Positions 184 through 58,403 of a DNA stretch of 64,000 nucleotides are shown piece after piece; the stretch's first letter is position 1, and each line of letters begins with the position of its first letter. Source of the stretch: Naegleria gruberi (taxonomy: Eukaryota); assembly GCA_000004985.1 (NCBI GenBank), contig GG738849.1; one strand, 5' to 3'. The translations under genes and the position numbers were made by a program. The notes under the pieces are model-generated. The model made no database searches and was not told the DNA's origin. It saw nothing but the letters and a program-made list of their open reading frames with translations.

Positions 184-329
184 TCTGGAAACTGTTGAAA
201 TTATCCTCACTATTTTACCTTCTCAATCCACTAAGGTCAACTTGTGTAAACAATTTTAAATATTTCTCTCTCCATGTTCAACAAAGTTTTAAAAATAAAT
301 TTTCCGTTAAAAAATTATTTAAAAAAAAA

Positions 330-1856
330 ATGAAACGACAACTCGAAGATCCGATCCACTCGGAAAAGAAACAAAAATCAAATGATCACGGAAAGGATGT
401 TATTAAAATGTTAGGATATACCAATGATGAAAATCCCTTCAATGATAGCAATTTATCGGAAAAATTTGTATGGACAAAACAAGAAGACAATTCATCATCA
501 TTAACCGAAAATAAAAGGAAGGAAATTTTGTTATTAAAACAACAAAGATTGGAGAGAGAAATGGAAAAGAGAAGATGGGAAATGGAAAGAGAAAGAGTTT
601 TCAGAGAAAGAGAAGCTGAAAGATTTGATGAATATGAAAAGAAGGAATCTGAATTTCACTTGAAACAAGAAAATTTAGCATCGTTTATTAGATTGAGAGA
701 AAGAAGAGCAAAATTAATTGATTTTGTTACTAATAACTTGAAATATTTGAGATTTAAGGATAAATTACTTGGTGATGACTATGACAGCCATTTGATTTTA
801 AGCAGTGAACATGAAAGAATTTATGGAGTTGAGTATAAAAAGCCATATGAAGTATTTCATGATAGAAAATTGCAAGATTTATTAGATTCTCAAGAAGATT
901 TGGAAACAATGATTGAATGTGATATTGACTATCAAGATTTCTGGAGAGCACTTTCTGTAATTGTCAAGGATGAAATTAATCTTGCAAAGGAATATGAAAA
1001 GAAAAAGGTAGGAAAGGAAGAAGAAAGAACTAAAGATATTCATGCTTCAGTTGTGGCTGAAATTAAAGAATTGCTATCTGATAAGAATTTGGATGAATTA
1101 TTAGAAATGGAACAATTAATTAATGAAACATTAGATAATAGAGATGCTTCAACAGATGTTGAATATTGGGAAGGTTTGAAAAAGTACCTCCAAATTTACA
1201 AAGCTAGGAACATTGTCTCACAAATTCATCAGGAAGCAATCAAAGTTTATGAACAAATGAAAAAGAATGGTACAACTGATAGAATTTTCACTCAACACAA
1301 TACTCCTTCATCTTACAAGGATAATGCTACTCAACAAAAGAAGGATCATAACTCAATATCAGGAGGAGCATCCAATGAAGATGATAGATTAATGCGAGAA
1401 TACAAAAATAAGGAAACAGAGGAAGGTGATGAAGATACAGTGGAAGAAGTCAAACTAGTCAACCAACAATATGCATGGAATGATAAGTATAGACCAAGAA
1501 AACCTAAATTCTTCAATCGTGTAAGAACAGGATATGAATGGACAAATTACAATAGAACTCACTATGATTTTGAAAATCCTCCTCCAAAAGTCATTCAAGG
1601 TTACAAATTCAACATTTTCTATCCAGATTTAATTGACAGAAGTATCACACCATCCTATGCTTTAGAAAGAGATCCAAATAATGATGAATTCTCCATTCTT
1701 ACATTCCATTCTGGTCCACCTTATGAGGATATTTCATTTAGAATTGTAAATAGAGAGTGGGAAAAGTCTCACAGAAGAGGTTATAGATGTGTTTTCGAGA
1801 GGGGTGTTCTTCAACTGCACTTTAAATTTAAGAAATTAAAATTCCAAAAAGATTAA
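330..1856 (+). CDS. Cactin (spliceosome-associated protein), single exon
   Basis: The C-terminus (WNDKYRPRKPKFFNRVRTGYEWTNYNRTHYDFENPPPKVIQGYKFNIFYPDLID...FRIVNREWEKSHRRGYRCVFERGVLQLHFKFKK) is a near-perfect Cactin C-terminal domain. ATG at 330 is preceded by A10. Track ORF 195 starts only 12 nt after the upstream stop, so 330 is preferred. Confidence 0.85.
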   Translation: MKRQLEDPIHSEKKQKSNDHGKDVIKMLGYTNDENPFNDSNLSEKFVWTKQEDNSSSLTENKRKEILLLKQQRLEREMEKRRWEMERERVFREREAERFDEYEKKESEFHLKQENLASFIRLRERRAKLIDFVTNNLKYLRFKDKLLGDDYDSHLILSSEHERIYGVEYKKPYEVFHDRKLQDLLDSQEDLETMIECDIDYQDFWRALSVIVKDEINLAKEYEKKKVGKEEERTKDIHASVVAEIKELLSDKNLDELLEMEQLINETLDNRDASTDVEYWEGLKKYLQIYKARNIVSQIHQEAIKVYEQMKKNGTTDRIFTQHNTPSSYKDNATQQKKDHNSISGGASNEDDRLMREYKNKETEEGDEDTVEEVKLVNQQYAWNDKYRPRKPKFFNRVRTGYEWTNYNRTHYDFENPPPKVIQGYKFNIFYPDLIDRSITPSYALERDPNNDEFSILTFHSGPPYEDISFRIVNREWEKSHRRGYRCVFERGVLQLHFKFKKLKFQKD

Positions 1857-2055: not shown

Positions 2056-3273
2056 TTATTCATCAGTCATTCTGTACAATGCTTCATCCAACAAATCAAT
2101 GCCCAATGTTGAAATAAATTTGAACAACCAACTTTGACCGTCATCATCAATATTTACAAAATCTTGTCCAATCCATTCTTTCTTAAATGTTGAAATAGCT
2201 TGTTCTCTATTTGATGACCCTTTTTGTTCATTCCCATCAGTTTCGTCTTGTTCAGATTCTTCATCATTCTCCTCTTCCTCATCACCTTCATTCCCATCAC
2301 CTTGTTTCATTAAGATGAGTTTTGTTTGGCTTTTTGGATCTTCCAAGTCACTAGCTTGATCACTGTGTAATCTAGATACAGAAATAGAAATACCTTTTTC
2401 ATGAGTTTCACCACCATAGGAAACACTATAGTCAATATCAATCCTCATAGAAAAAGGAATGAGTGCAGTGTAATAATCCAATGTAAAGTGAATAGTTGAT
2501 ATTGTATTGTTAGTATCTCCATCATCAGTTACACTAATATAGGTCAACTTGTGATCTACAGATGTAATGTGAAATCTTGAATAAAGGGATGGTGCAATAA
2601 GAGTAGTATCAGCATAACTACAATCCTGATGGGTAGTTAAAAAGAAAGTTCTCACAGGTCCAATTCTTGAATGTTTGTCAAAACTTGCATGTTTTAACAA
2701 ACAAAATTCCTTCATAAATTGATACGAGTGCTCTTTAATCATCTCCTTGCCACTCTTTGTAAATATAGTTGGTTTTGTTGTAAAACGAGTAATTCTATTA
2801 ATTTCCACAACAATTATATCATTGGTATCGAATTGTGTTGGCCATTTAGTCCAATTTTTAAAACTTTCCAATGTCATATCCCACAATCTACAAAACAATT
2901 CTTGCCACATTCTTTCCTCATCAATCATACCTTTATACCAAGGACGACAAACCAAAAACACTGATCCATTCAATACACTTTCCAAATCCATAAATGGAAC
3001 AATCGAATAGGCAACAATTTCTGGTGGTAACGATTTGATTAAAGAAGGTAAACGCGCCATTTCATATTTTCTCTTCTTTCTTTCCGCCCATACCATCACC
3101 AAATCACAAAAGTCATCATAACTTTGAACTTTCTCATTCTTTTGATAATTTTCATAGCACTCTATCATGTGGGCATCTAGTTGTTCAATTTTATTCTCTT
3201 GCTCCTCTTGTAAATTTGCTGATGATGATTTATTGGATGGTGCTTCATGGGTGGCTTTTCTCTTTGGTGCCAT
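2056..3273 (-). CDS. F-box domain protein (C-terminal region of unknown function, acidic tail)
   Basis: N-terminal LPSLIKSLPPEIVAYSIVPFMDLESVLNGSVFLVCRPWY matches the F-box consensus (LP.EI...I...L....L......VC+.W). Real ATG start. No recognisable C-terminal domain. Confidence 0.5.
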   Translation of the reverse strand: MAPKRKATHEAPSNKSSSANLQEEQENKIEQLDAHMIECYENYQKNEKVQSYDDFCDLVMVWAERKKRKYEMARLPSLIKSLPPEIVAYSIVPFMDLESVLNGSVFLVCRPWYKGMIDEERMWQELFCRLWDMTLESFKNWTKWPTQFDTNDIIVVEINRITRFTTKPTIFTKSGKEMIKEHSYQFMKEFCLLKHASFDKHSRIGPVRTFFLTTHQDCSYADTTLIAPSLYSRFHITSVDHKLTYISVTDDGDTNNTISTIHFTLDYYTALIPFSMRIDIDYSVSYGGETHEKGISISVSRLHSDQASDLEDPKSQTKLILMKQGDGNEGDEEEENDEESEQDETDGNEQKGSSNREQAISTFKKEWIGQDFVNIDDDGQSWLFKFISTLGIDLLDEALYRMTDE

Positions 3274-3377
3274 TTTTTTTGATGAAGTTTTGCGAATATT
3301 CGTACTACGTTCTTGTACTTTTATTGTAATGAAGGTAGAGTTTGAAGTTTTTTTCGACTGTTTTTTGGAATAATTTA

Positions 3378-4493
3378 CTAATGATGTTCATGATTACAAC
3401 AAGAATGTTCATGATGGTCGTGTGTACAGTTTTCAGAGTGTTCATGTTGACAAGCTTCAGAATGTTCATGCTGATGTTCGTGTTGTTGACAATTTTCAGA
3501 GTGTTCATGATGATGCTCATGTTGACAACACTCACCATGCTCATGATGATGATGATGTTCGTGGTGTTCGTGTTCATGGTGATGATCATGTTGACAACAG
3601 TGGTGATGACCTTGTTCTTGCATTTCCTTAATTGCTTCTTGAATTTGTCTTCTCATTTCAGTTGATCTAGCCCAAATGATCAAATTAACTCGTTCTCCCT
3701 TAGTAAGAGGTAAAGCACCATGCATTAATGCTCCATCATGCATCACAGCTCTCCCAACAACATGTTGATATTCAAAGTATTGATTATAAGTCTTTGGATT
3801 ATCTCTGTGACCTCTGAAGAATAAATTTCCACCTTCAAATCCTGGTTTTCCCAAACAAACATTTAATGTGAGTTCGGCATCATCGACGTGAACATTTAAA
3901 TCCTTATCACCACCAATAAAGTATTCTACAAAGAAGGTATGATGATCATCCAAATCAAATCCAGCTGGATTCATAATCTTGGCCAATGGACACAAATATT
4001 CCACAATAAATACATCAAAGAATTTTCCCAATCCAATTTCATCAATGACAATACCATAGTTATTCATTGAATTTGGTCTCAATTTAACATGATGATTCTT
4101 TTCATAATTATTCTTTTCTTCAATCATTTTCTGAGAAAATTCTGGAGTGAAAATTTCCAAGCTATAAACCTGAGGAACTTCTTCAGTCAGAATGGTCAAG
4201 AGAATTTCTCTCTTTTTCTGATTAAACTCCTTTTTAATAGTATTAAAAGCTTCCTCACTTTCAGCCTTCTCCAATAAATCAAAATAATAATGTAATTCCT
4301 TGGCATCTTTACAAGCCTTGGCAAAGGTCGGATTTAAAAACTTTTCATCAAACTCGAATAAATCTTTGTGTAATCTATTATATTCCTTATTTACAAATGT
4401 GAGAGTATCTCTCTCCGAGGAAGAAGATGATGGTGAAGAACCATTGTTATTGGCTTCTTCCTCTGGTGTGGTGTTACTTGGTTCGTTGCTCAT
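3378..4493 (-). CDS. 2-oxoglutarate/Fe(II)-dependent oxygenase (prolyl-4-hydroxylase-like, PKHD/OGFOD-type) with a C-terminal His/Cys/Glu-rich tail
   Basis: HVD (His-x-Asp) ... MHDGALMHG (second His) ... GERVNLIIWARS (Arg-x-Ser) spaced as in the P4Hc/2OG-Fe(II) oxygenase fold. C-terminal ~75 aa: HHHCCQHDHHHEHEHHEHHHHHEHGECCQHEHHHEHSENCQ... ATG is preceded by an A-run. Confidence 0.6.
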   Translation of the reverse strand: MSNEPSNTTPEEEANNNGSSPSSSSSERDTLTFVNKEYNRLHKDLFEFDEKFLNPTFAKACKDAKELHYYFDLLEKAESEEAFNTIKKEFNQKKREILLTILTEEVPQVYSLEIFTPEFSQKMIEEKNNYEKNHHVKLRPNSMNNYGIVIDEIGLGKFFDVFIVEYLCPLAKIMNPAGFDLDDHHTFFVEYFIGGDKDLNVHVDDAELTLNVCLGKPGFEGGNLFFRGHRDNPKTYNQYFEYQHVVGRAVMHDGALMHGALPLTKGERVNLIIWARSTEMRRQIQEAIKEMQEQGHHHCCQHDHHHEHEHHEHHHHHEHGECCQHEHHHEHSENCQQHEHQHEHSEACQHEHSENCTHDHHEHSCCNHEHH

Positions 4494-4866: not shown

Positions 4867-6599
4867 ATGAAAAAAATGAATCGATTGGTTGTTGGGCGGG
4901 AGCTCGTTCTCCTCGTCTTGTTTTTCGTTTGTTGTTGTCTAGCCTTCGCAAATGCTGCTTCGAACAAGATTCTCGAAGGAAAGACTTCCAATGATGTTGC
5001 ACAATTTAATATTAACTTGGTTGGAAATGGAGCACCATTAAATCATTTTTGGAAAAGATCGGTCGGTAGTTGTCATGCTACTTTTTGTTTGAGAGCAGAT
5101 TGGAGAGAACAATTGAAATTGGCTCAAAAGGAATTGGGATTCACAGGTATTAGATTCCAGTAAGTTTGTTTATTAGTTGAACATAGTGTGTGAGAGAAGA
5201 ATTTGTGTATTTTTGCTTATAATTCGTTTACAATTTTGTTAATATTTTACAATAGTGGTATTTTCAATGATGATATGAGTGTTGTTTTGCAAAGTAGACA
5301 TGATCCTAATGTTCTTCAATATTCATTCTTTAATGTGGATCAATGTTATGATTTCCTTGTTGGTGAATTGAAGATGAAACCAATTATTGAATTGAGTTTC
5401 ATGCCAGAATTGATTGCCAGTGATCCTTCAAAGACTATTTTCCATTACAAGGGTGGTATTTCACCTCCAAAGTCAATGAAAATGTGGAATGATTTGATTT
5501 ATTATTTCGTTACCCATTTAATTGAAAGATATGGATTGGATGAAGTTGCTAGTTGGCATTTTGAAGTTTGGAATGAACCAAATTTGAGAAATACTTTCTG
5601 GACTGGTACTCAACAAGATTATTTCAATCTTTATAATAATACTGCTCATACTATTAAGGGAATTAGTAATAGACTTAGAGTTGGTGGACCAGCAACTGCA
5701 GGATCTGGATGGATTCAAGATTTTGTCAATTATGCCAAGTCTAATAATGTTCCTTATGATTTTGTTTCAACTCACGAATATCCAACTGATATTGAACCTT
5801 TGGCAACTGACACTTTGATTAAAGTTGCCAAGCAAACAAAGAATATTGTTGGACCAAATACTCCATTGCTCTATACTGAATGGAATTCTGGATTGAATAA
5901 TATTGGAAGTGGAACTTATTTCTATCAAGATTCTTCTTATCCAGCTGCTCTCGTTCCAAGAACACTCTTTTCTATTAATGGAGTTGTTGAAGTTTACAGT
6001 TATTGGACTTTTACTGACTTGTTTGAAGAACATGGGTTTGTATTTTTCAATTTTTAATTTTCATAATTTTCCATTTTAATGTTTAATAATTATTTTAATA
6101 TTTTCTTTTTAGTCAATACCCAGAGGTTTTCCAAGAAAACTTTGGCATGATGTCAATCTATGGTGTCAGAAAACCAGTTTGGAGAGCATTCGAATTAATG
6201 GCTAAAGCTGGTAATGAACTTTTCAATTCTACTACCACCTCTACTTCAACTGTCAATGTCTTTGCAACCCTCAACAAGCAAGCAAAGGAAATCATGATCT
6301 TTGCTTCAAATTATCAAGTTCCAACTCAAAAAGCTGAAGCTTTCCTTGTATCTATCAATGTTGACAGCCTTTCCAATACTTTGAGCAATTGCAAGACTCA
6401 TATTATTGATGAAACTAGATCCAATGCCTTCACTAAATGGAAGCAAATTGGCTCACCAACCTACCCAACTCAAAGTCAATTGAAGGAACTCCATACTGCT
6501 TCAACTTTGTTCACTCAAAATATTGAACCAAAGAACGGTAGTACTTTTGTTATTCAAATGGAAAATCCATCATTGCATGTTATTGTGTGTAATGTTTAA
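4867..6599 (+). CDS. Secreted GH39-family glycoside hydrolase (alpha-L-iduronidase/beta-xylosidase-like), 3 exons
   Basis: Signal peptide MKKMNRLVVGRELVLLVLFFVCCCLAFA. Catalytic motifs SWHFEVWNEPN (acid/base) and LLYTEWNSG (nucleophile) as in IDUA/GH39. Exons ~4867-5159, 5256-6035, 6113-6599. Introns 96 nt (GTAAGT..TAG) and 77 nt (GTTTGT..TAG) keep the frame; total 1560 nt = 520 codons. Confidence 0.7.
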
Positions 6600-6694: not shown

Positions 6695-8764
6695 TTATTC
6701 CAAAACAGGAACCATAGAAAATCTTTCCAAATGTTTGAACCTTTGACCTATATATTCCATGTACATTTTAGCCATTTGGTTTTCCAATTCAACTAGAATT
6801 TCTTTGGCTGTATTTGTGGAATCACTGAATGCCTTGATGGATCTATAATAAACCTTGACCTTGGTTATATTCTTACATTCTGATAATAATTTCTTTAGAG
6901 GAGTCTTTTCCTTCTTGCAATAAATTTTGAATTTCATCTTCCAAGCGTTCAAATCTCTGGCATATTCCATACTTTCCTTCTGGAAAAATTCTACAGTTGG
7001 CTTGTAACCCTTTGGTCTCCAGTTCAATAAGGATTCATGAATATAGAGAACTCTTAAACTCTTAGTTTGTGACAATACCTTTAAAAAGTCAAATCTTTCG
7101 AATACATTGTAATTAGCCTTATATAAAACTAGTTTGCCAAGGGATGAAATTGGAAGTAGTTTTTCTGCACCTCCAGCCAGCATGAAATCACCCTTGAGAG
7201 ATTGTATTTTCTTGTTAACAATTTGCTTTAAAAATGTTTCTCTATCAAATGCTATTGAAAGAGTGGAAGATGGATTTGGTTGAACTCTAACATATTTGAC
7301 TGAACTATTCAAATCATTAAGGTATGGAACACCAACACCTACAGAAGGACTGTAAATGTAAGCATTACCAGAAGAATCATTTCCAGGTATTACTTTTGGA
7401 TATGCTCTGATGGTCAAATAAATTACAACTGATCTCAAACTTGGGAAATCACGTAATAACATGGCCAGAGAGGCAGGAGAGTGAAAACCTCCTCTAATGT
7501 CCATGTGCTTTAAATTGGGTAAATATTTTTTGATCAACTTCATAGTCTCTTCTAAACACTCGGTTGGGCTGTCAACTACAAAAGTTAGCTTTTTCAAATA
7601 ATTAAAATATGAAAAGAATTGGAAAATCCTTTCTCTTCTTAATGGATTTTGTGGAACATTTGGAACTCTCTTCTCGAAATATCCTAAGGAATTAATGAGT
7701 GATCTGAAAGTTTGGGCAAGATGATTACTTTTCATAGTATTGAATAAATTAAACTTAGTTTGTCTAATCTCTGGTAGTTTTTCTAAAAAGGTATTTGTGT
7801 CAACCTTTTCTCCAGCATTAAAAACTTCCTTATCTCCATCCTTAAACATAATTTCAATAATAGTATTTTGTAAATGTTCTAAATATTGTGTTAGTGTGAA
7901 TAGTTCAACATTCTCCTTATCTTCAATAACTGCTTTCCTAGAGTCAAGAAATTTACCACCATCATATTCTCTTGTTTCAAACCTAGACAAAAATCCCTCT
8001 TTCAAAGATTCACTAACAACAATTTCGTGAGATGTAAATGCTTCCCACATTTGCAGTAGTATTTCTAAATTATTTTCTCTTAACACTATTTTTTGCATAT
8101 CAATTGAAATCAGTTGCTCTCTTCCACAAGGATCATAGAGTCTTTTCATTAGTAATTCTCTAATGAATCTTAGTGTACAGAGTGTAGATCCTCCACAAAA
8201 CTTTTCCTTCTTATATCCATTTGAGAAGACCACCTTGTGTAGTTTAGTAAAGGCTACTCTCAAGAAAAGATCATCCACCAACCTCTTTCTAAAGAAGTAT
8301 TGAAAGTAAAAATCATCCACACAATTTTCAAGTTCTACTGTACAAACTTTAACATTCGGATACAACATGACCAATCTATTTGTTATTGGATAGTTGCAAT
8401 CATACAATGTAGAACTATATTGATAATATTTGCATTTTCCGAAGACTTGATTAAAAATTAGTTCCGAAATATTAGCAACTTTTGATGTATCAAAGCGAGA
8501 AAGTATCAATTTCTTTGAATGTCCATCCAATTTAATACATCCCAATTTTTTCTTCACTCCCATAGCATAGGATTCAACAATTTTAATTTCCAAATAGGCT
8601 TGAAAATTAAATATATGCTGAATAATTTCCTTCGGAAGATCCGAAAACGTTCTATTACTTAGTAAGCAATTTGTATTTTTGTTTTTTCCACTATTGCCTG
8701 ATGTATTACTACTAGCATTTGATCGATTAGAATTTCCCTTGTTGTTTTTTCTTGCTTTTTTCAT
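6695..8764 (-). CDS. Hypothetical 689-aa protein, possible F-box-like N-terminus with leucine-rich body
   Basis: Single ORF with real ATG after an A-run. SDLPKEIIQHIFNF resembles an F-box start. No confident domain assignment. Confidence 0.35.
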   Translation of the reverse strand: MKKARKNNKGNSNRSNASSNTSGNSGKNKNTNCLLSNRTFSDLPKEIIQHIFNFQAYLEIKIVESYAMGVKKKLGCIKLDGHSKKLILSRFDTSKVANISELIFNQVFGKCKYYQYSSTLYDCNYPITNRLVMLYPNVKVCTVELENCVDDFYFQYFFRKRLVDDLFLRVAFTKLHKVVFSNGYKKEKFCGGSTLCTLRFIRELLMKRLYDPCGREQLISIDMQKIVLRENNLEILLQMWEAFTSHEIVVSESLKEGFLSRFETREYDGGKFLDSRKAVIEDKENVELFTLTQYLEHLQNTIIEIMFKDGDKEVFNAGEKVDTNTFLEKLPEIRQTKFNLFNTMKSNHLAQTFRSLINSLGYFEKRVPNVPQNPLRRERIFQFFSYFNYLKKLTFVVDSPTECLEETMKLIKKYLPNLKHMDIRGGFHSPASLAMLLRDFPSLRSVVIYLTIRAYPKVIPGNDSSGNAYIYSPSVGVGVPYLNDLNSSVKYVRVQPNPSSTLSIAFDRETFLKQIVNKKIQSLKGDFMLAGGAEKLLPISSLGKLVLYKANYNVFERFDFLKVLSQTKSLRVLYIHESLLNWRPKGYKPTVEFFQKESMEYARDLNAWKMKFKIYCKKEKTPLKKLLSECKNITKVKVYYRSIKAFSDSTNTAKEILVELENQMAKMYMEYIGQRFKHLERFSMVPVLE

Positions 8765-22463: not shown

Positions 22464-24803
22464 TTATTTCCAACTCCATGAATTTTGTGTTTGTTGTGGA
22501 TATCTATTTTGTTGAGTAAAGAAACCAGAATATGCTTGTTGTTGTTGTTGATTCACACCATAAGGATCTACTTGTTTTTGTTGGTGGTTTGGTTCAGTTT
22601 CAGTTGCGTTCATTCCCCAATCAACATTATTTTGTTGTCCTTCGTTTTTGGCAAATGTAATATTTACATTAGGGAGTAAAGCTCTAAAGCTGTTTTGAAG
22701 ATCAGCATTATTAAACATTTGTTCGTTACCTTGTCCATTAGATGAACCTCCAAAGAATCTACTTGTTTGTTGACCAGATCCTGATCCAGATAAATAAGGT
22801 ACTGATTGCATATTCCAATCCATACCATGTCCTCCATAAGGGTAGTGATGTGGCATTTGTTGAGGTTGAGATTGTTGAGATGGTTGTTGTTGTTGTTGAG
22901 GTGGTGCATCAGAAGATGGATTGCCTCCAAAGAATCTAGATGATGTTCTCTTTGTATCAACGTTTTGATTACCATTTGACCAAGCATCTCCATAATATTG
23001 GTAGTAAGGATCATATTGGAAGGTAGCAAACAGCTGCTGAACTTGTTGTGGATATCCATAATATTGGTTTTGCACTTGTTGATAATTTTGTGGAGCAGTG
23101 AATGAATTTTGTGTTCCTTGTTGTGTTTGATCCATTCCAAAACCATTAAATCCATTTGTTGTTGGTTTCGAGTCAACCAATGCAAGTAAAGCAGATCTAT
23201 CACTCGAAATAGGTTGTTGTCCAGATTCAAGACCAAGCATTTCCAAAGTTGGATGTGTTTCTAAAATTTGAGATTCAACTTGGTCTAATGTACTCTCTTC
23301 ATTGATATTTATATTATCAATAACACTGATTGCAACCTTTTCTTGGTTTTCTGATATTAAATCTTCACCACTTGGATCAGTGCTAGATCTTCCACTACTG
23401 CAAGAGTTAGCTTCTGTATTATTAGTATCATTAGTTGTTATTGTTGTAGTTGAAGCTTCTGTTGTTTCTGTGGAAGCCTCAGTTGCTTCTGTTTCTTTTT
23501 GTTTTGATTTCTTGTTCTTGTTCTTATTCTTATTCTTGTTTTTAATCTTATTCTTCTTCTTACTCTTTGTAATATTTGTTGGTAAATTTACAGGTATTAT
23601 TGGAGAAGTAACAGCTGGAGTTACAATAGGAGTAGTAGGTTGTCCCCATCTTGCTGTTTTAGGAAGTATCGATTCTTTGCTATTATCTAACACTTTTGTT
23701 GTTAAATCAGCATATTCTGTTTGTACTTCATCATCTTCTTCCTCTTCTTCACCATCATCATCACCTCCATAATAATAATCATCAATGCTATGATGATCAT
23801 ATTCATGTCTGCTCCTACTGGAAGAACTTGTTCTTGGTCTTGTATTTCCTATGGAGTCATCAGCATAGTCATCATCTTGTAAGTCCTCTTCTAATAGATT
23901 ATCATCGTCGTCGTCCATGATATCATAATGACGAAGTGGATTAGAACGGCTATTTGCTCCCCCAGCAGACAAATCATCATCCTCATTAGATTCATCACCC
24001 TCAGGCTCCTTGTTAGAGTTTTGATACTTCCAGAAATGTTTATCTATCGGTTGTGAATCATCATCAGGTGGATAAAACTGAGACATTTTCTCTAAATTGT
24101 GTGGAACTGGCAAACCATTCCTCAGAACAATTTCATCCTTATTAAAAGTATCTTCATCGTTCCCATATTCGTGTAGATACATACAGTCAGGATTCGTACA
24201 AGGAATACCCTTTAAAAAGTATGCACAATATTTTGTTGTACCAAAAGATGCTCGTAATTGTTTAGCGTCCAAGTAAGTTTTGTCAACAGCCCTAATAGCT
24301 TTATAGGCATCCTCCTTTCTAACATAGGTAATATATGCACTCACTGTAGGAGTTCTATTAGAAGCAATATGTGTTGAATTATGTAAATTACTCTTGTTGA
24401 TTACTACTTTTTTGATTTTACCATACTTTCCGAAATTGTCTTGATGTTTTAACCAATCATGTTTAGCAACAACCAGAGTTAGTCCAACCACATAGACCAA
24501 ATTACGCTGTATAACCCTAACATTTGCGAGTTGTTTTCTGTTAATGTGTGGTTTTTTCTTCTTCTCCTTTTGCTTCTTTTCTTGTTGAATTAATTCTGGA
24601 TCTGGAGGAGTAAATTCAATGTTTGATTTCTCGTATTCTCTTCTACAATTTGGGCAACGTTTGCTTGTATTGTCGATCTTGTTCCAACACCAAGAGCAGA
24701 TTTTAAATCCACACGGACAAGGTTGGAAATGTTTGTCTGTAATGTCCAAGTCTTCGCAGCAAATTGGACAAGTTGTATCTTCGTCGCTTGAATAATCACT
24801 CAT
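22464..24803 (-). CDS. CCR4-NOT complex subunit 4 (NOT4/MOT2 E3 ligase) with a long Q/N-rich C-terminus
   Basis: NOT4-type RING CPICCEDLDITDKHFQPCPCGFKICSWCWNKI...RCPNCRREY, followed by an RRM (LVYVVGL...) and a C3H zinc finger (CAYFLKGIPCTNPDCMYLHE). C-terminus contains NKIKNKNKNKNKNKK and QQQQQPSQQSQPQQ. Confidence 0.8.
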   Translation of the reverse strand: MSDYSSDEDTTCPICCEDLDITDKHFQPCPCGFKICSWCWNKIDNTSKRCPNCRREYEKSNIEFTPPDPELIQQEKKQKEKKKKPHINRKQLANVRVIQRNLVYVVGLTLVVAKHDWLKHQDNFGKYGKIKKVVINKSNLHNSTHIASNRTPTVSAYITYVRKEDAYKAIRAVDKTYLDAKQLRASFGTTKYCAYFLKGIPCTNPDCMYLHEYGNDEDTFNKDEIVLRNGLPVPHNLEKMSQFYPPDDDSQPIDKHFWKYQNSNKEPEGDESNEDDDLSAGGANSRSNPLRHYDIMDDDDDNLLEEDLQDDDYADDSIGNTRPRTSSSSRSRHEYDHHSIDDYYYGGDDDGEEEEEDDEVQTEYADLTTKVLDNSKESILPKTARWGQPTTPIVTPAVTSPIIPVNLPTNITKSKKKNKIKNKNKNKNKNKKSKQKETEATEASTETTEASTTTITTNDTNNTEANSCSSGRSSTDPSGEDLISENQEKVAISVIDNININEESTLDQVESQILETHPTLEMLGLESGQQPISSDRSALLALVDSKPTTNGFNGFGMDQTQQGTQNSFTAPQNYQQVQNQYYGYPQQVQQLFATFQYDPYYQYYGDAWSNGNQNVDTKRTSSRFFGGNPSSDAPPQQQQQPSQQSQPQQMPHHYPYGGHGMDWNMQSVPYLSGSGSGQQTSRFFGGSSNGQGNEQMFNNADLQNSFRALLPNVNITFAKNEGQQNNVDWGMNATETEPNHQQKQVDPYGVNQQQQQAYSGFFTQQNRYPQQTQNSWSWK

Positions 24804-58024: not shown

Positions 58025-58211
58025 ATAATCACATTGTATATTGGACACCGAACGAATATCAAACTTTTACAATTTTAGAGATTTGTAAAACACAAGAAAT
58101 TGAATTCACATAGGTTTTTATTCTTTTGTTGAAATCTAAAAAGATTTCGTTGGAATAATTTATTTGAAATTACATAAATGCAACAAAAATTTCAGGGGCT
58201 CGCCACGTTTA

Positions 58212-58282
58212 CCGTCTCGGGAGGAATCGAACCTCCGTCAATGGATTCAAAGTCCACTATGCTACCATTACACCACGAGACG
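58212..58282 (-). tRNA. tRNA-Gln (anticodon UUG), intronless, 71 nt
   Basis: Minus-strand sequence CGTCTCGTGGTGTAATGGTAGCATAGTGGACTTTGAATCCATTGACGGAGGTTCGATTCCTCCCGAGACGG. It has a 7-bp acceptor stem, a GTGGA/TCCAT anticodon stem with loop CTTTGAA, and a T-arm GGAGG-TTCGATT-CCTCC. It aligns closely to typical eukaryotic tRNA-Gln(UUG). A T-run lies ~20 nt downstream. Confidence 0.8.
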
Positions 58283-58403
58283 AGCACATTATTTATATCA
58301 ACACCCCCAAGTGCTTAAATACTCTTCCATTAAGGGGATATCGTTTTCAAGCTGTTTTTCAACACTCTCCGAATTTTTGATCATTTAAATCAATTAGAAA
58401 AAT

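What the first reader, a model, noticed from the sequence alone, without database searches (positions are those of the whole stretch)
3378..3640. 2OG-Fe(II) oxygenase fused to a His/Cys/Glu-rich repetitive tail
After the catalytic HxD...H...R core, the last ~75 residues are almost entirely His, Glu, Cys and Gln in short repeats (CQHEH, HEHSENC...). The DNA here is visibly periodic. Such tails are typical of Ni/Zn/Co metallochaperones (HypB, UreE, Hpn) and are not a standard feature of prolyl-hydroxylase-like enzymes. This suggests a metal-buffering or metal-delivery appendage on an iron enzyme, or a lineage-specific low-complexity expansion.
Basis: seen in the sequence. Interest (0 to 1): 0.55.

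Follow-up and report, generated by a model that had tools for sequence, protein, structure and literature searches.

The report
Histidine-cysteine tail on orphan oxygenase
A Naegleria gruberi enzyme of the little-understood OGFOD2 family ends in a real 77-residue tail made mostly of histidine, glutamate and cysteine; related amoebae keep such a tail and distant relatives have similar ones, which suggests an untested metal-binding appendage on an iron enzyme.

Summary
The window comes from Naegleria gruberi. The single-exon gene at 3378-4493 (minus strand) encodes the 371-aa "hypothetical protein" NAEGRDRAFT_35199.

- **Core:** residues 28-294 form a confidently modelled OGFOD2-like Fe(II)/2-oxoglutarate oxygenase. 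Y191, H202, D204, H258 and R268 are all in place. The nearest solved fold is the collagen lysyl-hydroxylase domain, not prolyl hydroxylase.
- **Tail:** residues 295-371 are 44% His, 19% Glu and 12% Cys. They are predicted disordered and partly built from 36-39-nt tandem units.
- **Not an artefact:** the syntenic N. fowleri and N. lovaniensis genes, and those of Willaertia, Acrasis and environmental relatives, all carry in-frame His/Cys/acidic tails. These tails share an H-x-H-[D/S]-E-[N/H]-C motif, but their length and sequence change quickly (25, 35 and 77 aa within Naegleria).
- **Recurrence:** similar tails occur at the same position in other lineages, including Capsaspora Ogfod2. Nearly half of the non-ICU11-type tails of at least 15 residues carry a Cys pair there.

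My best reading is a selected, flexible metal-binding tail that buffers or supplies metal for the active site. Metal binding and its role are inferred, not shown. This is a new variant of a known kind, of moderate interest.

The parts
3378..4493 (-). Complete single-exon gene for the 371-aa OGFOD2-like 2OG/Fe(II) oxygenase (NAEGRDRAFT_35199 / XP_002681722.1), stop codon included
   Evidence: ORF list. 100% identity over the 295-residue core query to P0001, a 371-aa N. gruberi protein whose sequence equals the ORF translation; accessions.
4413..4493 (-). N-terminal low-complexity leader (aa 1-27, Asn/Ser/Glu-rich), predicted disordered and not conserved
   Evidence: pLDDT 42-65 for aa 1-30. Absent from the N. 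fowleri and N. lovaniensis orthologues.
3972..4391 (-). OGFOD2-like N-terminal domain (aa 35-174), including the invariant RPNSMNNYG motif
   Evidence: Pfam PF25238, E = 1.1e-25, 90.5 bits against a cut-off of 31. Invariant columns P140-N144 and G147.
3666..3947 (-). Double-stranded beta-helix catalytic core (aa 183-276) with Y191, H202, D204, H258 and R268. Codons: 3921-3923, 3888-3890, 3882-3884, 3720-3722, 3690-3692
   Evidence: Residues invariant or nearly invariant in 44 relatives. They align with the L230 residues whose roles are given as Tyr814/His825/Asp827/His877/Arg887 in PMC5802723; the residue correspondence was read from the alignment (6ax6 chain numbering). Strands modelled at pLDDT above 90. 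Foldseek top hits are 6ax6 and 6fxk. Coordinates.
3615..3662 (-). Linker helix (aa 278-293, TEMRRQIQEAIKEMQE) between the last strand and the tail; shared with the other Naegleria species and Willaertia
   Evidence: DSSP helix 278-293 in the AF2 model. Alignment A2.
3381..3611 (-). His/Glu/Cys-rich tail (aa 295-371): 34 His, 15 Glu, 9 Cys. Vicinal Cys pairs at 299-300, 322-323 and 365-366; single Cys at 335, 348 and 356. Predicted disordered.
   Evidence: Composition. pLDDT below 50 for aa 304-371. Orthologous tails.
3439..3559 (-). Tandem 36/39-nt repeat array inside the tail. The best pair, at 3445-3524, encodes QHEHHHEHSENC / QQHEHQHEHSEAC, followed by a shortened QHEHSENC unit.
   Evidence: TRF period 36 (75% matches) and period 39 (85% matches). 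Direct-repeat families D1-D3. Codon-level units.

Best explanation
The gene encodes a cytosolic or nuclear OGFOD2-type Fe(II)/2-oxoglutarate oxygenase, probably a protein hydroxylase. Its substrate is unknown.

Its C-terminus is a translated, intrinsically disordered tail that can probably bind several divalent metal ions. The likely ligands are His imidazoles, Cys thiolates and Glu carboxylates.

The tail appears to be built on a Cys pair that lies about 10-25 residues after the last beta-strand in roughly half of the non-ICU11-type family members examined. In Heterolobosea this became H-x-H-[D/S]-E-[N/H]-C repeats. In N. gruberi it was lengthened further by tandem duplication of a 12-13-residue C-Q-H-E-H-x-H-E-H-S-E-N unit.

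Proposed mechanism (inferred): the tail is tethered by a short helix next to the active-site barrel and acts as a local metal buffer. It could capture Fe(II) and hand it to the 2-His-1-carboxylate site. It could also soak up Zn, Ni, Co or Cu, which would otherwise displace Fe(II) and inactivate the enzyme.

What is shown and what is inferred:
- Shown: the sequence, the reading frame, conservation in orthologues, recurrence in the family, predicted disorder, and the intact catalytic residues.
- Inferred: translation in vivo, metal binding, which metal, and any effect on catalysis.
For: - Frame and identity: one continuous ORF whose core (the 295-residue query) is 100% identical to a 371-aa N. 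gruberi protein model, and whose full translation matches that model's sequence.
- Orthology: the gene order cactin / OGFOD2-like / GH39 / ~700-aa gene is conserved in N. fowleri and N. lovaniensis, and their single-exon genes end in GEHCCC...CEHHH and GDHCCC...CEHHH tails.
- Conservation of kind, not sequence: all eight heterolobosean homologues have His/Cys/acidic tails sharing [D/S]-E-[N/H]-C motifs. Across the three Naegleria species the core is 80-91% identical and the tail only 22-46%, with lengths of 25, 35 and 77 aa. H + C + D/E stays at 71-84% of the tail.
- Recurrence at the same position: 20 of 244 non-redundant relatives have at least 6 His in a 20-residue window downstream of the last strand (one of these 20 is the Ctr fusion P0307, and P0085/P0218 are near-duplicates), including Capsaspora 'Ogfod2 protein'. 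That is 19 of 87 among non-ICU11-type tails. A rough NJ tree with Fitch parsimony needs at least 8 gains or losses. Five further relatives have His-rich N-terminal extensions, three of them (P0077, P0167, P0193) also Cys-containing.
- Cys pair: a C-x0-3-C pair occurs in 41 of 87 non-ICU11 tails, at 14.9 per 1000 aa against 1.3 upstream.
- Transcript support in relatives: the transcriptome-derived relatives P0013 and P0017 carry such tails in complete ORFs.
- Structure: the tail is predicted disordered (pLDDT below 50) after a well-folded core.
- Analogy: His/Cys-rich C-termini of this composition bind Ni2+ and Zn2+ in SlyD (PMC3292732). In H. pylori GroES/HspA domain B, two vicinal Cys pairs bracket a His-rich loop that binds 2 Ni per monomer (PMC5116745). 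The N. gruberi tail has the same CC-His-rich-CC layout (C299-C300 ... C322-C323).
- Precedent for assisted Fe(II) loading: mammalian PCBP1 delivers Fe(II) to the HIF prolyl hydroxylases (PMC9932599).
Against: - No experiment and no metal-site model. The tail has no detectable sequence homologue, either in the PDB or in 5.8 billion proteins, once composition bias is corrected.
- Rapid turnover in length and sequence, together with the tandem-duplication signature, is also what neutral low-complexity drift looks like.
- Close relatives P0008 and P0009 (51-53% identical) have no such tail, so it is dispensable for the fold and probably for catalysis.
- By the Irving-Williams order, His/Cys sites prefer Zn, Cu and Ni over Fe(II). 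An Fe-delivery role is therefore less likely than sequestration of competing metals.
- No N. gruberi RNA or protein data were available, and the exact protein was not on record in other assemblies.
Confidence: 0.55

Rival explanations
1. Neutral low-complexity expansion. Replication slippage or unequal exchange of a short H/E/C-coding unit inflated a tolerated, disordered C-terminus, and the tail has no function of its own.
For: - Period 36/39-nt tandem units at 75-85% identity.
- Tail lengths of 25, 35 and 77 aa in three Naegleria species, with tail identity of 22-46% against 80-91% for the core.
- Predicted disorder.
- Close relatives P0008 and P0009 lack the tail.
Against: - The His/Cys/acidic composition and the [D/S]-E-[N/H]-C motif persist across Naegleria, Willaertia, Acrasis and environmental relatives, even though the sequence itself turns over.
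- The same kind of tail recurs at the same position in separate lineages, including Capsaspora.
- The conserved bracketing elements HCC(C) and C-E-H-H-H are retained in all three Naegleria species.
- Repeat units differ at synonymous sites while keeping the amino acids.
- It is the only His-rich stretch in the 64-kb window.
Confidence: 0.22
2. A metal store or chaperone for other clients, moonlighting as HspA and SlyD do. The tail stores or detoxifies Ni, Zn, Co or Cu for the cell or for another metalloenzyme, and the oxygenase is merely its carrier.
For: The composition and the CC...CC layout resemble HspA domain B and the SlyD tail, which serve nickel storage and enzyme maturation (PMC5116745, PMC3292732). 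The tail holds 34 His and 9 Cys, so its potential capacity is several metal ions.
Against: The tail recurs specifically on this one enzyme family in unrelated lineages, and a Cys pair is frequent at the same place in the family. Both point to a link with the enzyme itself. No Ni-enzyme context was found or examined, and eukaryotic gene neighbourhoods are uninformative.
Confidence: 0.1
3. A non-metal role. The His-rich tract could be a localisation or interaction signal (His repeats target human proteins to nuclear speckles; this is from my own knowledge and was not checked). It could also be a pseudo-substrate or autoinhibitory segment that folds back into the active site.
For: The characterised plant relatives ICU11 and CP2 are nuclear PRC2 accessory proteins (PMC7368280; bioRxiv 10.1101/2024.03.15.585069), so a nuclear role for the family is plausible. 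The 77-residue flexible tail follows the last strand of the barrel and could reach the active site.
Against: The regular interspersion of Cys and Glu with His, and the conserved Cys pairs, are typical of metal ligation and are not needed for a speckle signal. Nothing here bears on localisation.
Confidence: 0.08
4. An annotation or assembly artefact. The true protein would end near residue 294, and the tail would be 3' UTR, an intron or a frameshifted read-through.
For: Other frames of the same repetitive DNA are also open, for example ORFs 3305-3589(-) and 3342-3665(+), so openness alone is weak evidence.
Against: In-frame tails of the same composition end the single-exon orthologues in two other Naegleria genomes and in an independent Logan assembly of N. 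fowleri. The same holds for Willaertia, Acrasis and environmental contigs. Transcriptome-derived relatives carry such tails in complete ORFs. The chance of 77 open codons at this base composition is 0.003.
Confidence: 0.03

Closest known systems
OGFOD2 family (Pfam PF25238), including Capsaspora 'Ogfod2 protein' and human OGFOD2
   Same: The N-terminal OGFOD2-like domain scores above the Pfam cut-off. The RPNSMNNYG motif, the DDHH motif, the H-x-D...H...R residues and C213 are conserved. Capsaspora Ogfod2 also ends in a His-rich tail.
   Different: Metazoan-type members carry a short C-P-M-C motif instead of a long His-rich tail. The function of OGFOD2 is unknown (PMC10083964), so the family supplies no mechanism.
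Arabidopsis ICU11 / CP2 (CUPULIFORMIS family), PRC2 accessory 2OG oxygenases
   Same: Same superfamily branch. A protein named ICU11 (P0271) is recovered by the family profile at E = 2e-107 and carries the same PF25238 domain and catalytic residues.
   Different: ICU11-type proteins have a conserved, structured C-terminal extension, C-x-S-x-T-H-D-x-D ... W-C-P-P, modelled at pLDDT 95-98. N. gruberi lacks it and has the disordered tail in that place. The biochemical activity of ICU11 has not been demonstrated (PMC7368280).
Collagen lysyl hydroxylase catalytic (LH) domain: mimivirus L230 (6ax6) and human LH3/PLOD3 (6fxk)
   Same: These are the nearest solved structures by profile (E = 3e-19) and by fold (Foldseek E = 4e-12, TM 0.78-0.81 normalised to the target). 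The Tyr, His, Asp, His and Arg cofactor ligands align (PMC5802723).
   Different: Only about 20% identity. There are no glycosyltransferase domains and no evident signal peptide. The LH domain ends just after the last strand and has no His-rich tail (alignment).
Helicobacter pylori GroES/HspA domain B
   Same: A C-terminal appendage on an unrelated housekeeping fold. Two vicinal Cys pairs (C94-C95, C111-C112) bracket a His-rich loop that binds 2 Ni per monomer and serves nickel storage and protection (PMC5116745). N. gruberi has C299-C300 ... C322-C323 bracketing a 21-residue His/Glu run.
   Different: No sequence homology. HspA domain B is 28 residues and bacterial. Here the tail is 77 residues, eukaryotic, and attached to an Fe enzyme. 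Metal binding is untested.
SlyD C-terminal tail; Hpn/Hpn-2, HypB and UreE His-rich regions
   Same: His-rich (with or without Cys), acidic, disordered segments that bind several Ni/Zn ions (PMC3292732, PMC4671568).
   Different: Those proteins work in Ni-enzyme maturation and have their own defining domains (FKBP, G-domain, UreE fold). None of these is present here.

Membership tests
Fe(II)/2-oxoglutarate-dependent oxygenase superfamily | [quoted passage not shown] H) | tested here: met
   H202 (at least 90% conserved), D204 and H258 (invariant) in 44 relatives. They align with the L230 Fe ligands, named His825/Asp827/His877 in PMC5802723; the correspondence was read from the alignment.
Fe(II)/2-oxoglutarate-dependent oxygenase superfamily | Basic residue (plus Tyr) that binds the 2OG C5 carboxylate | tested here: met
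   R268 is invariant and Y191 nearly so. They align with the L230 residues named Arg887 and Tyr814 in PMC5802723; the correspondence was read from the alignment.
Fe(II)/2-oxoglutarate-dependent oxygenase superfamily | Double-stranded beta-helix fold | tested here: met
   AF2 model with strands 183-276 at pLDDT above 90. 365 PDB matches at E <= 0.001; the 50 listed are 2OG oxygenases or uncharacterised putative oxygenases.
Fe(II)/2-oxoglutarate-dependent oxygenase superfamily | 2OG-dependent oxidative activity | not testable with these tools
   Needs an enzyme assay.
OGFOD2-like (Pfam PF25238) | Match to the family HMM above the gathering score | tested here: met
   90.5 bits against a cut-off of 31, E = 1.1e-25, aa 35-174.
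ICU11/CP2 (CUPULIFORMIS) subfamily | Conserved C-terminal extension C-x-S-x-T-H-D-x-D ... W-C-P-P and the His loop H-R-x3-H-x-Y-x-H | tested here: not met
   These residues are invariant in 71 ICU11-type sequences. They are absent from the N. gruberi sequence, which has the helix plus His/Cys tail there instead.
Collagen lysyl hydroxylase (PLOD/LH) | LH catalytic domain similarity | tested here: met
   Remote similarity only: E = 3e-19, about 21% identity, TM 0.78-0.81 to 6ax6/6ax7.
Collagen lysyl hydroxylase (PLOD/LH) | Secretory-pathway targeting and fused glycosyltransferase domains | tested here: not met
   No other Pfam domain. The N-terminus is hydrophilic (MSNEPSNTTPEEE...), so there is no signal peptide (sequence).
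   No P4H-type Pfam match at E <= 1. PHD2 and P4H structures match only at E about 1e-6 with query-normalised TM 0.34-0.36, below the LH domain.
His-rich Ni/Zn metallochaperones (HypB, UreE, SlyD, HspA, Hpn) | His-rich (with or without Cys) segment | tested here: met
   44% His and 12% Cys over 77 residues.
His-rich Ni/Zn metallochaperones (HypB, UreE, SlyD, HspA, Hpn) | The family's own domain (G-domain, UreE fold, FKBP, GroES) or sequence homology | tested here: not met
   No such Pfam domain. The tail alone finds nothing in the PDB or in the 5.8-billion-protein set.
His-rich Ni/Zn metallochaperones (HypB, UreE, SlyD, HspA, Hpn) | Demonstrated metal binding and transfer | not testable with these tools
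   Needs ICP-MS or ITC and transfer assays.

The most novel reading that the evidence does not exclude
The OGFOD2/ICU11 family as a whole may carry a previously unrecognised second metal-binding element directly after the catalytic barrel. It would take three forms: a Cys pair in many members, a structured Cys/His/Asp extension in the ICU11 type, and expanded His/Cys repeats in Heterolobosea, Capsaspora and others. This element would load, protect or gate the catalytic Fe(II) site, making these orphan oxygenases (human OGFOD2, and the plant PRC2 accessory proteins ICU11 and CP2) metal-responsive enzymes. The Naegleria tail would then be a built-in metallochaperone or metal sensor.
Probability: 0.2. 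Interest if true: 0.65.

Novelty: new variant of a known kind. Interest (0 to 1): 0.4.

Why it matters
OGFOD2 is one of the human 2OG oxygenases with no known function (PMC10083964). Its plant relatives ICU11 and CP2 are genetically important Polycomb (PRC2) accessory proteins whose biochemical activity could not be shown in vitro (PMC7368280).

A recurrent Cys/His-rich element directly after the catalytic barrel, at its most extreme in N. gruberi, is a concrete and testable clue. Metal handling may be part of how this family works or is regulated, and recombinant assays may fail or mislead if the tail or its metal load is ignored.

More generally, this would be a eukaryotic example of an enzyme carrying its own His/Cys metal-capture tail. 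The best-studied such tails are in bacterial Ni-handling proteins.

If the tail turns out to be neutral low complexity, the finding is ordinary.

Tried and rejected
- **Tail alone against PDB sequences** (phmmer, E <= 10): no hits.
- **Tail alone against 5.8 billion proteins:** 1902 word-sharing candidates, none scored E <= 0.001, not even the protein itself, because of composition-bias correction.
- **Exact-protein look-up of the N. gruberi protein in other assemblies:** not on record, so there is no independent assembly check for N. gruberi itself.
- **Literature searches** for the locus tags or accessions, and for His-rich tails on 2OG oxygenases: nothing relevant.
- **AFDB fold library:** not available.
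- **A Zn(Cys)4 idea:** I considered that invariant C213, the Cys after W274 and the tail Cys pair form a four-Cys zinc site, compensated by a third tail Cys where the W-adjacent Cys is missing. Inspection of the 41 Cys-pair tails listed gave 4 of 15 against 3 of 25, which is no clear covariation. I have no model coordinates to check it, so I dropped it.
- **Profile search with A1**: dominated by ICU11-type algal sequences. It added little on the distribution of tails, though it did supply the ICU11 name.
- **Prokaryotic-style promoter/terminator and RNA-family scans:** not run, because the locus is eukaryotic protein-coding sequence.
Full report
**Where we are.** The window is AT-rich (33% GC). 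The ORF at 3378..4493 on the minus strand (371 aa) has a 295-residue core that is 100% identical to a 371-aa Naegleria gruberi protein, NAEGRDRAFT_35199 / XP_002681722.1, and the full ORF translation matches that protein's sequence. That protein is annotated only as "hypothetical protein" or "Fe2OG dioxygenase domain-containing protein". The neighbouring genes are:
- cactin at 195-1856 (+);
- an unassigned 405-aa ORF at 2056-3273 (-);
- a GH39 glycosidase in several exon-like ORFs at 4867-6599 (+);
- a 689-aa ORF at 6695-8764 (-).

**The observation.** It holds as described.
- The last 77 residues (aa 295-371, window 3381-3611) contain 34 His, 15 Glu, 9 Cys and 6 Gln.
- Against the core of the same protein, His is enriched from 3.7% to 44% (p = 5e-28) and Cys from 1% to 12% (p = 1e-7).
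- The DNA is periodic. Tandem Repeats Finder reports period 36 (3439-3559, 3.3 copies, 75% matches) and period 39 (3445-3524, 2.1 copies, 85% matches). These are the strongest tandem repeats in the 64-kb window.
- At codon level the units are C-Q-H-E-H-H-H-E-H-S-E-N, C-Q-Q-H-E-H-Q-H-E-H-S-E-A, C-Q-H-E-H-S-E-N and C-T-H-D-H-H-E-H-S. They differ at synonymous positions (CAT/CAC, GAG/GAA, AAT/AAC) as well as at a few replacements.
- The longest run of one codon is five. This is a diverged minisatellite-like duplication of a 12-13-residue peptide unit, not a CAT microsatellite.

**The enzyme.**
- Pfam assigns aa 35-174 to the OGFOD2-like domain PF25238 (90.5 bits, cut-off 31). No prolyl-hydroxylase family matches at E <= 1.
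- In an alignment of 44 relatives, D204, H258 and R268 are invariant, and H202 and Y191 nearly so.
- A profile of that alignment finds collagen lysyl-hydroxylase domains as the only significant solved relatives: mimivirus L230 (6ax6) at E = 3e-19 and human LH3 at 6e-17 to 6e-18. The five residues align with the L230 Fe and 2OG ligands, named Tyr814, His825, Asp827, His877 and Arg887 in PMC5802723; I read the correspondence from the alignment.
- An AlphaFold2 model built on the alignment is confident for aa 28-295 (mostly pLDDT above 90). It ends in a helix at 278-293 and is disordered for 304-371 (pLDDT below 50).
- Foldseek against the PDB ranks L230 and LH3 first (E = 4e-12; TM 0.78-0.81 to L230). 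PHD2 and bacterial P4H follow at about 1e-6.

So the core is an intact OGFOD2-type, lysyl-hydroxylase-like 2OG oxygenase rather than a prolyl hydroxylase in the strict sense.

**What is known about the family.**
- Human OGFOD2 has no known function (PMC10083964).
- The profile search also recovers a protein named ICU11.
- Arabidopsis ICU11 and CP2 are nuclear PRC2 accessory proteins. Their suspected demethylase or hydroxylase activity could not be reproduced in vitro (PMC7368280; bioRxiv 10.1101/2024.03.15.585069).

**Is the tail an artefact?** No.
- N. fowleri (P0074, 309 aa) and N. lovaniensis (P0002, 299 aa) have single-exon orthologues in the same gene order (700-aa gene / GH39 / OGFOD2-like / cactin). 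For N. fowleri there is also an independent Logan assembly.
- Both orthologues end in frame with GEHCCCDQDDDQEEHLCCSSENCTNEHEHKCEHHH and GDHCCCDHHDEHSCHDHDGACEHHH.
- Willaertia magna, Acrasis kona and three environmental heterolobosean-like sequences also end in His/Cys/acidic tails. The environmental and Acrasis tails are built from E-H-V-H-D-E-[N/H]-C units.
- The short motif [D/S]-E-[N/H]-C, usually preceded by H-x-H, is shared from Naegleria (HEHSENC) to Acrasis (HVHDENC).
- The transcriptome-derived relatives P0013 and P0017 carry comparable tails in ORFs flagged complete.
- I could not check N. gruberi reads or transcripts. The exact protein is not on record in other assemblies.

**How the tail evolves.**
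- Between the three Naegleria species the core is 80-91% identical and the tail only 22-46%. Tail lengths are 77, 35 and 25 residues.
- H + C + D/E still makes up 71-84% of each tail.
- The bracketing elements G-x-H-C-C(-C) and C/N-(E)-H-(E)-H-H are kept.

This is the pattern expected for a disordered segment under selection for composition and a few anchor residues. The N. gruberi tail has been lengthened recently by tandem duplication.

**Is it specific to this family?** I collected 309 relatives. I split each one at the conserved end-of-barrel motif (G-E-R-x-N-L-I-x-W).
- 20 of 244 non-redundant sequences have at least 6 His in a 20-residue window downstream of the motif. One of these is the Ctr fusion P0307, and P0085/P0218 are near-duplicates.
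- 21 have such a window upstream, in five times more sequence.
- 16 of those 21 upstream windows are a conserved catalytic-domain loop of ICU11-type proteins (H-R-x-H-x-H-x-Y-H-H). The other five are His-rich N-terminal extensions, three of which (P0077, P0167, P0193) also contain Cys.
- Among non-ICU11-type proteins with tails of at least 15 residues, 19 of 87 are His-rich. These include Capsaspora owczarzaki 'Ogfod2 protein' (...DQHHHGHSHEHGHGHGHSH).
- A rough NJ tree with Fitch parsimony needs at least eight gains or losses. Because the tree is approximate and most sequences are unlabelled metagenomic ORFs, I treat this only as "several independent lineages".
- 41 of the 87 tails carry a Cys pair (C-P-M-C, C-P-x-W-C, C-x-C or CC) 8-33 residues after the last strand. 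That is 14.9 per 1000 residues against 1.3 upstream.
- The Naegleria H-C-C(-C) sits at that position, so it is probably the family's Cys pair, with the His-rich repeats as an elaboration.
- In the ICU11 subfamily the corresponding region is a conserved extension with invariant C292, H297, D298, D300, W319 and C320. AlphaFold2 models it at pLDDT 95-98.

The region directly after the barrel is therefore a hot spot for Cys/His-bearing elements across the whole family.

**Mechanism.** Nothing here measures metal binding. The inference rests on chemistry and analogy.
- Alternating His, Glu and Cys in a flexible chain is what multi-ion Ni/Zn-binding tails look like.
- SlyD has a His- and Cys-rich C-terminus that binds Ni2+ and Zn2+ (PMC3292732).
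- H. pylori GroES/HspA domain B has two vicinal Cys pairs (C94-C95, C111-C112) bracketing a His-rich loop. It binds two Ni per monomer and contributes to nickel storage and tolerance (PMC5116745).
- The N. gruberi tail has the same layout on a larger scale: C299-C300, a 21-residue His/Glu run, C322-C323, then single-Cys repeats and a final C365-C366.
- Fe(II) in 2OG oxygenases is held by a labile 2-His-1-carboxylate site. Mammals use a chaperone, PCBP1, to load the HIF prolyl hydroxylases (PMC9932599).

A tethered tail could therefore plausibly act as a local buffer. Given the usual preference of His/Cys sites for Zn, Ni and Cu over Fe(II) (established coordination chemistry, from my own knowledge), I consider sequestration of competing metals somewhat more likely than Fe(II) delivery.

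My confidence by step:
- about 0.9 that the tail is real and translated;
- about 0.6-0.7 that it binds metal in vivo;
- about 0.3 that its role is to protect or load the enzyme's own site.

**Rivals.**
- Neutral low-complexity drift remains the main alternative (0.22). It explains the fast turnover and the repeat signature. It does not explain the retained composition, the shared motif and anchors, or the recurrence at one position of one enzyme family.
- A moonlighting metal store for other clients (0.10) and a non-metal role such as localisation or autoinhibition (0.08) cannot be excluded.
- Artefact is unlikely (0.03).

**Novelty and verdict.** The protein is already in databases as a hypothetical protein, and its family is defined in Pfam. 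No paper in the searched library mentions this locus or a His/Cys tail on OGFOD2-type enzymes. The tail is best described as a new variant of a known kind: a His/Cys metal-binding-type appendage, familiar from bacterial Ni/Zn proteins, on an orphan eukaryotic Fe(II)/2OG oxygenase. The added observation is that Cys/His elements recur at this position across the family. Interest is moderate (0.4). The finding is real, conserved and testable, and it could bear on an orphan enzyme family. Its function is inferred only, and the low-complexity alternative is still open.

Noticed in passing
window 2056-3273 (-): A 405-aa ORF with no Pfam match lies between cactin and the OGFOD2-like gene. In N. fowleri (L001) and N. 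lovaniensis (L003) those two genes are only about 27-30 bp apart, so this gene is an N. gruberi-specific insertion, or was lost in the other two. Its sequence around LPPEIVAYSIVPF...LVCRPW looks F-box-like to my eye, but I did not confirm this.
   Followed up: partly
window 4867-6599 (+): A GH39 glycoside hydrolase gene is split into at least three ORF pieces (4867-5163, 5203-6057, 6147-6599), which implies short introns. Its position next to the OGFOD2-like gene is conserved in all three Naegleria genomes.
   Followed up: partly
L004 6001-7104 (Willaertia magna, P0003): The annotated Willaertia protein lacks 13 residues (the equivalent of GKPGFEGGNLFFR) inside the catalytic barrel. The gene span is 39 nt longer than the CDS. 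This is probably a falsely called 39-nt intron in the public annotation.
   Followed up: partly
L005 467-2524 (JGI metagenome 3300020203, P0307): One continuous 685-aa ORF joins an ICU11-type OGFOD2 domain, His-rich stretches (QEQHHEHHHEHHD, HEHDHHHKHHHDDD) and a Ctr copper-transporter domain (PF04145, E = 1.7e-9). A hydrophobic, signal-like stretch lies between the two halves. It may be a read-through of two adjacent genes rather than a true fusion.
   Followed up: partly
alignment A3 (ICU11-type relatives, numbering of P0271): ICU11-type proteins have an invariant His-bearing loop (H225, R226, H234, H242) just before the distal catalytic His. They also have a C-terminal extension with invariant C292, S294, T296, H297, D298, D300, W319, C320 and P321, modelled at pLDDT 95-98. 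This could be a structural metal site. I have not seen it described in the papers I read.
   Followed up: partly
P0077, P0167, P0193 (relatives from metagenomes): These family members carry His/Cys-rich stretches at the N-terminus instead of the C-terminus, for example MDQQQQHHHHHHHDESECHVCSQH and HHHHHHDDKNHDHNHNHAAEACACEHHHHHE.
   Followed up: no
P0019, P0084, P0107 (relatives from metagenomes): In these three proteins the His-rich tail is followed by a shared short C-terminal element (GEV[FY]..V.[DE]S.V.NVQF.[VI]). This suggests a further conserved module after the His run in that lineage.
   Followed up: no
family hits P0021, P0025/P0061, P0032 and others: Some relatives fuse the OGFOD2-like domain to TPR repeats, ankyrin repeats or a ubiquitin-conjugating (UQ_con, PF00179) domain. 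This fits a protein-modifying role for the family.
   Followed up: no
window 23509-23567 and 58211-58283: The only other tandem repeat scoring at least 80 in the window is an 18-nt unit with 3.3 copies at 23509-23567. A tRNA-Gln(TTG) gene lies at 58211-58283 (-).
   Followed up: no
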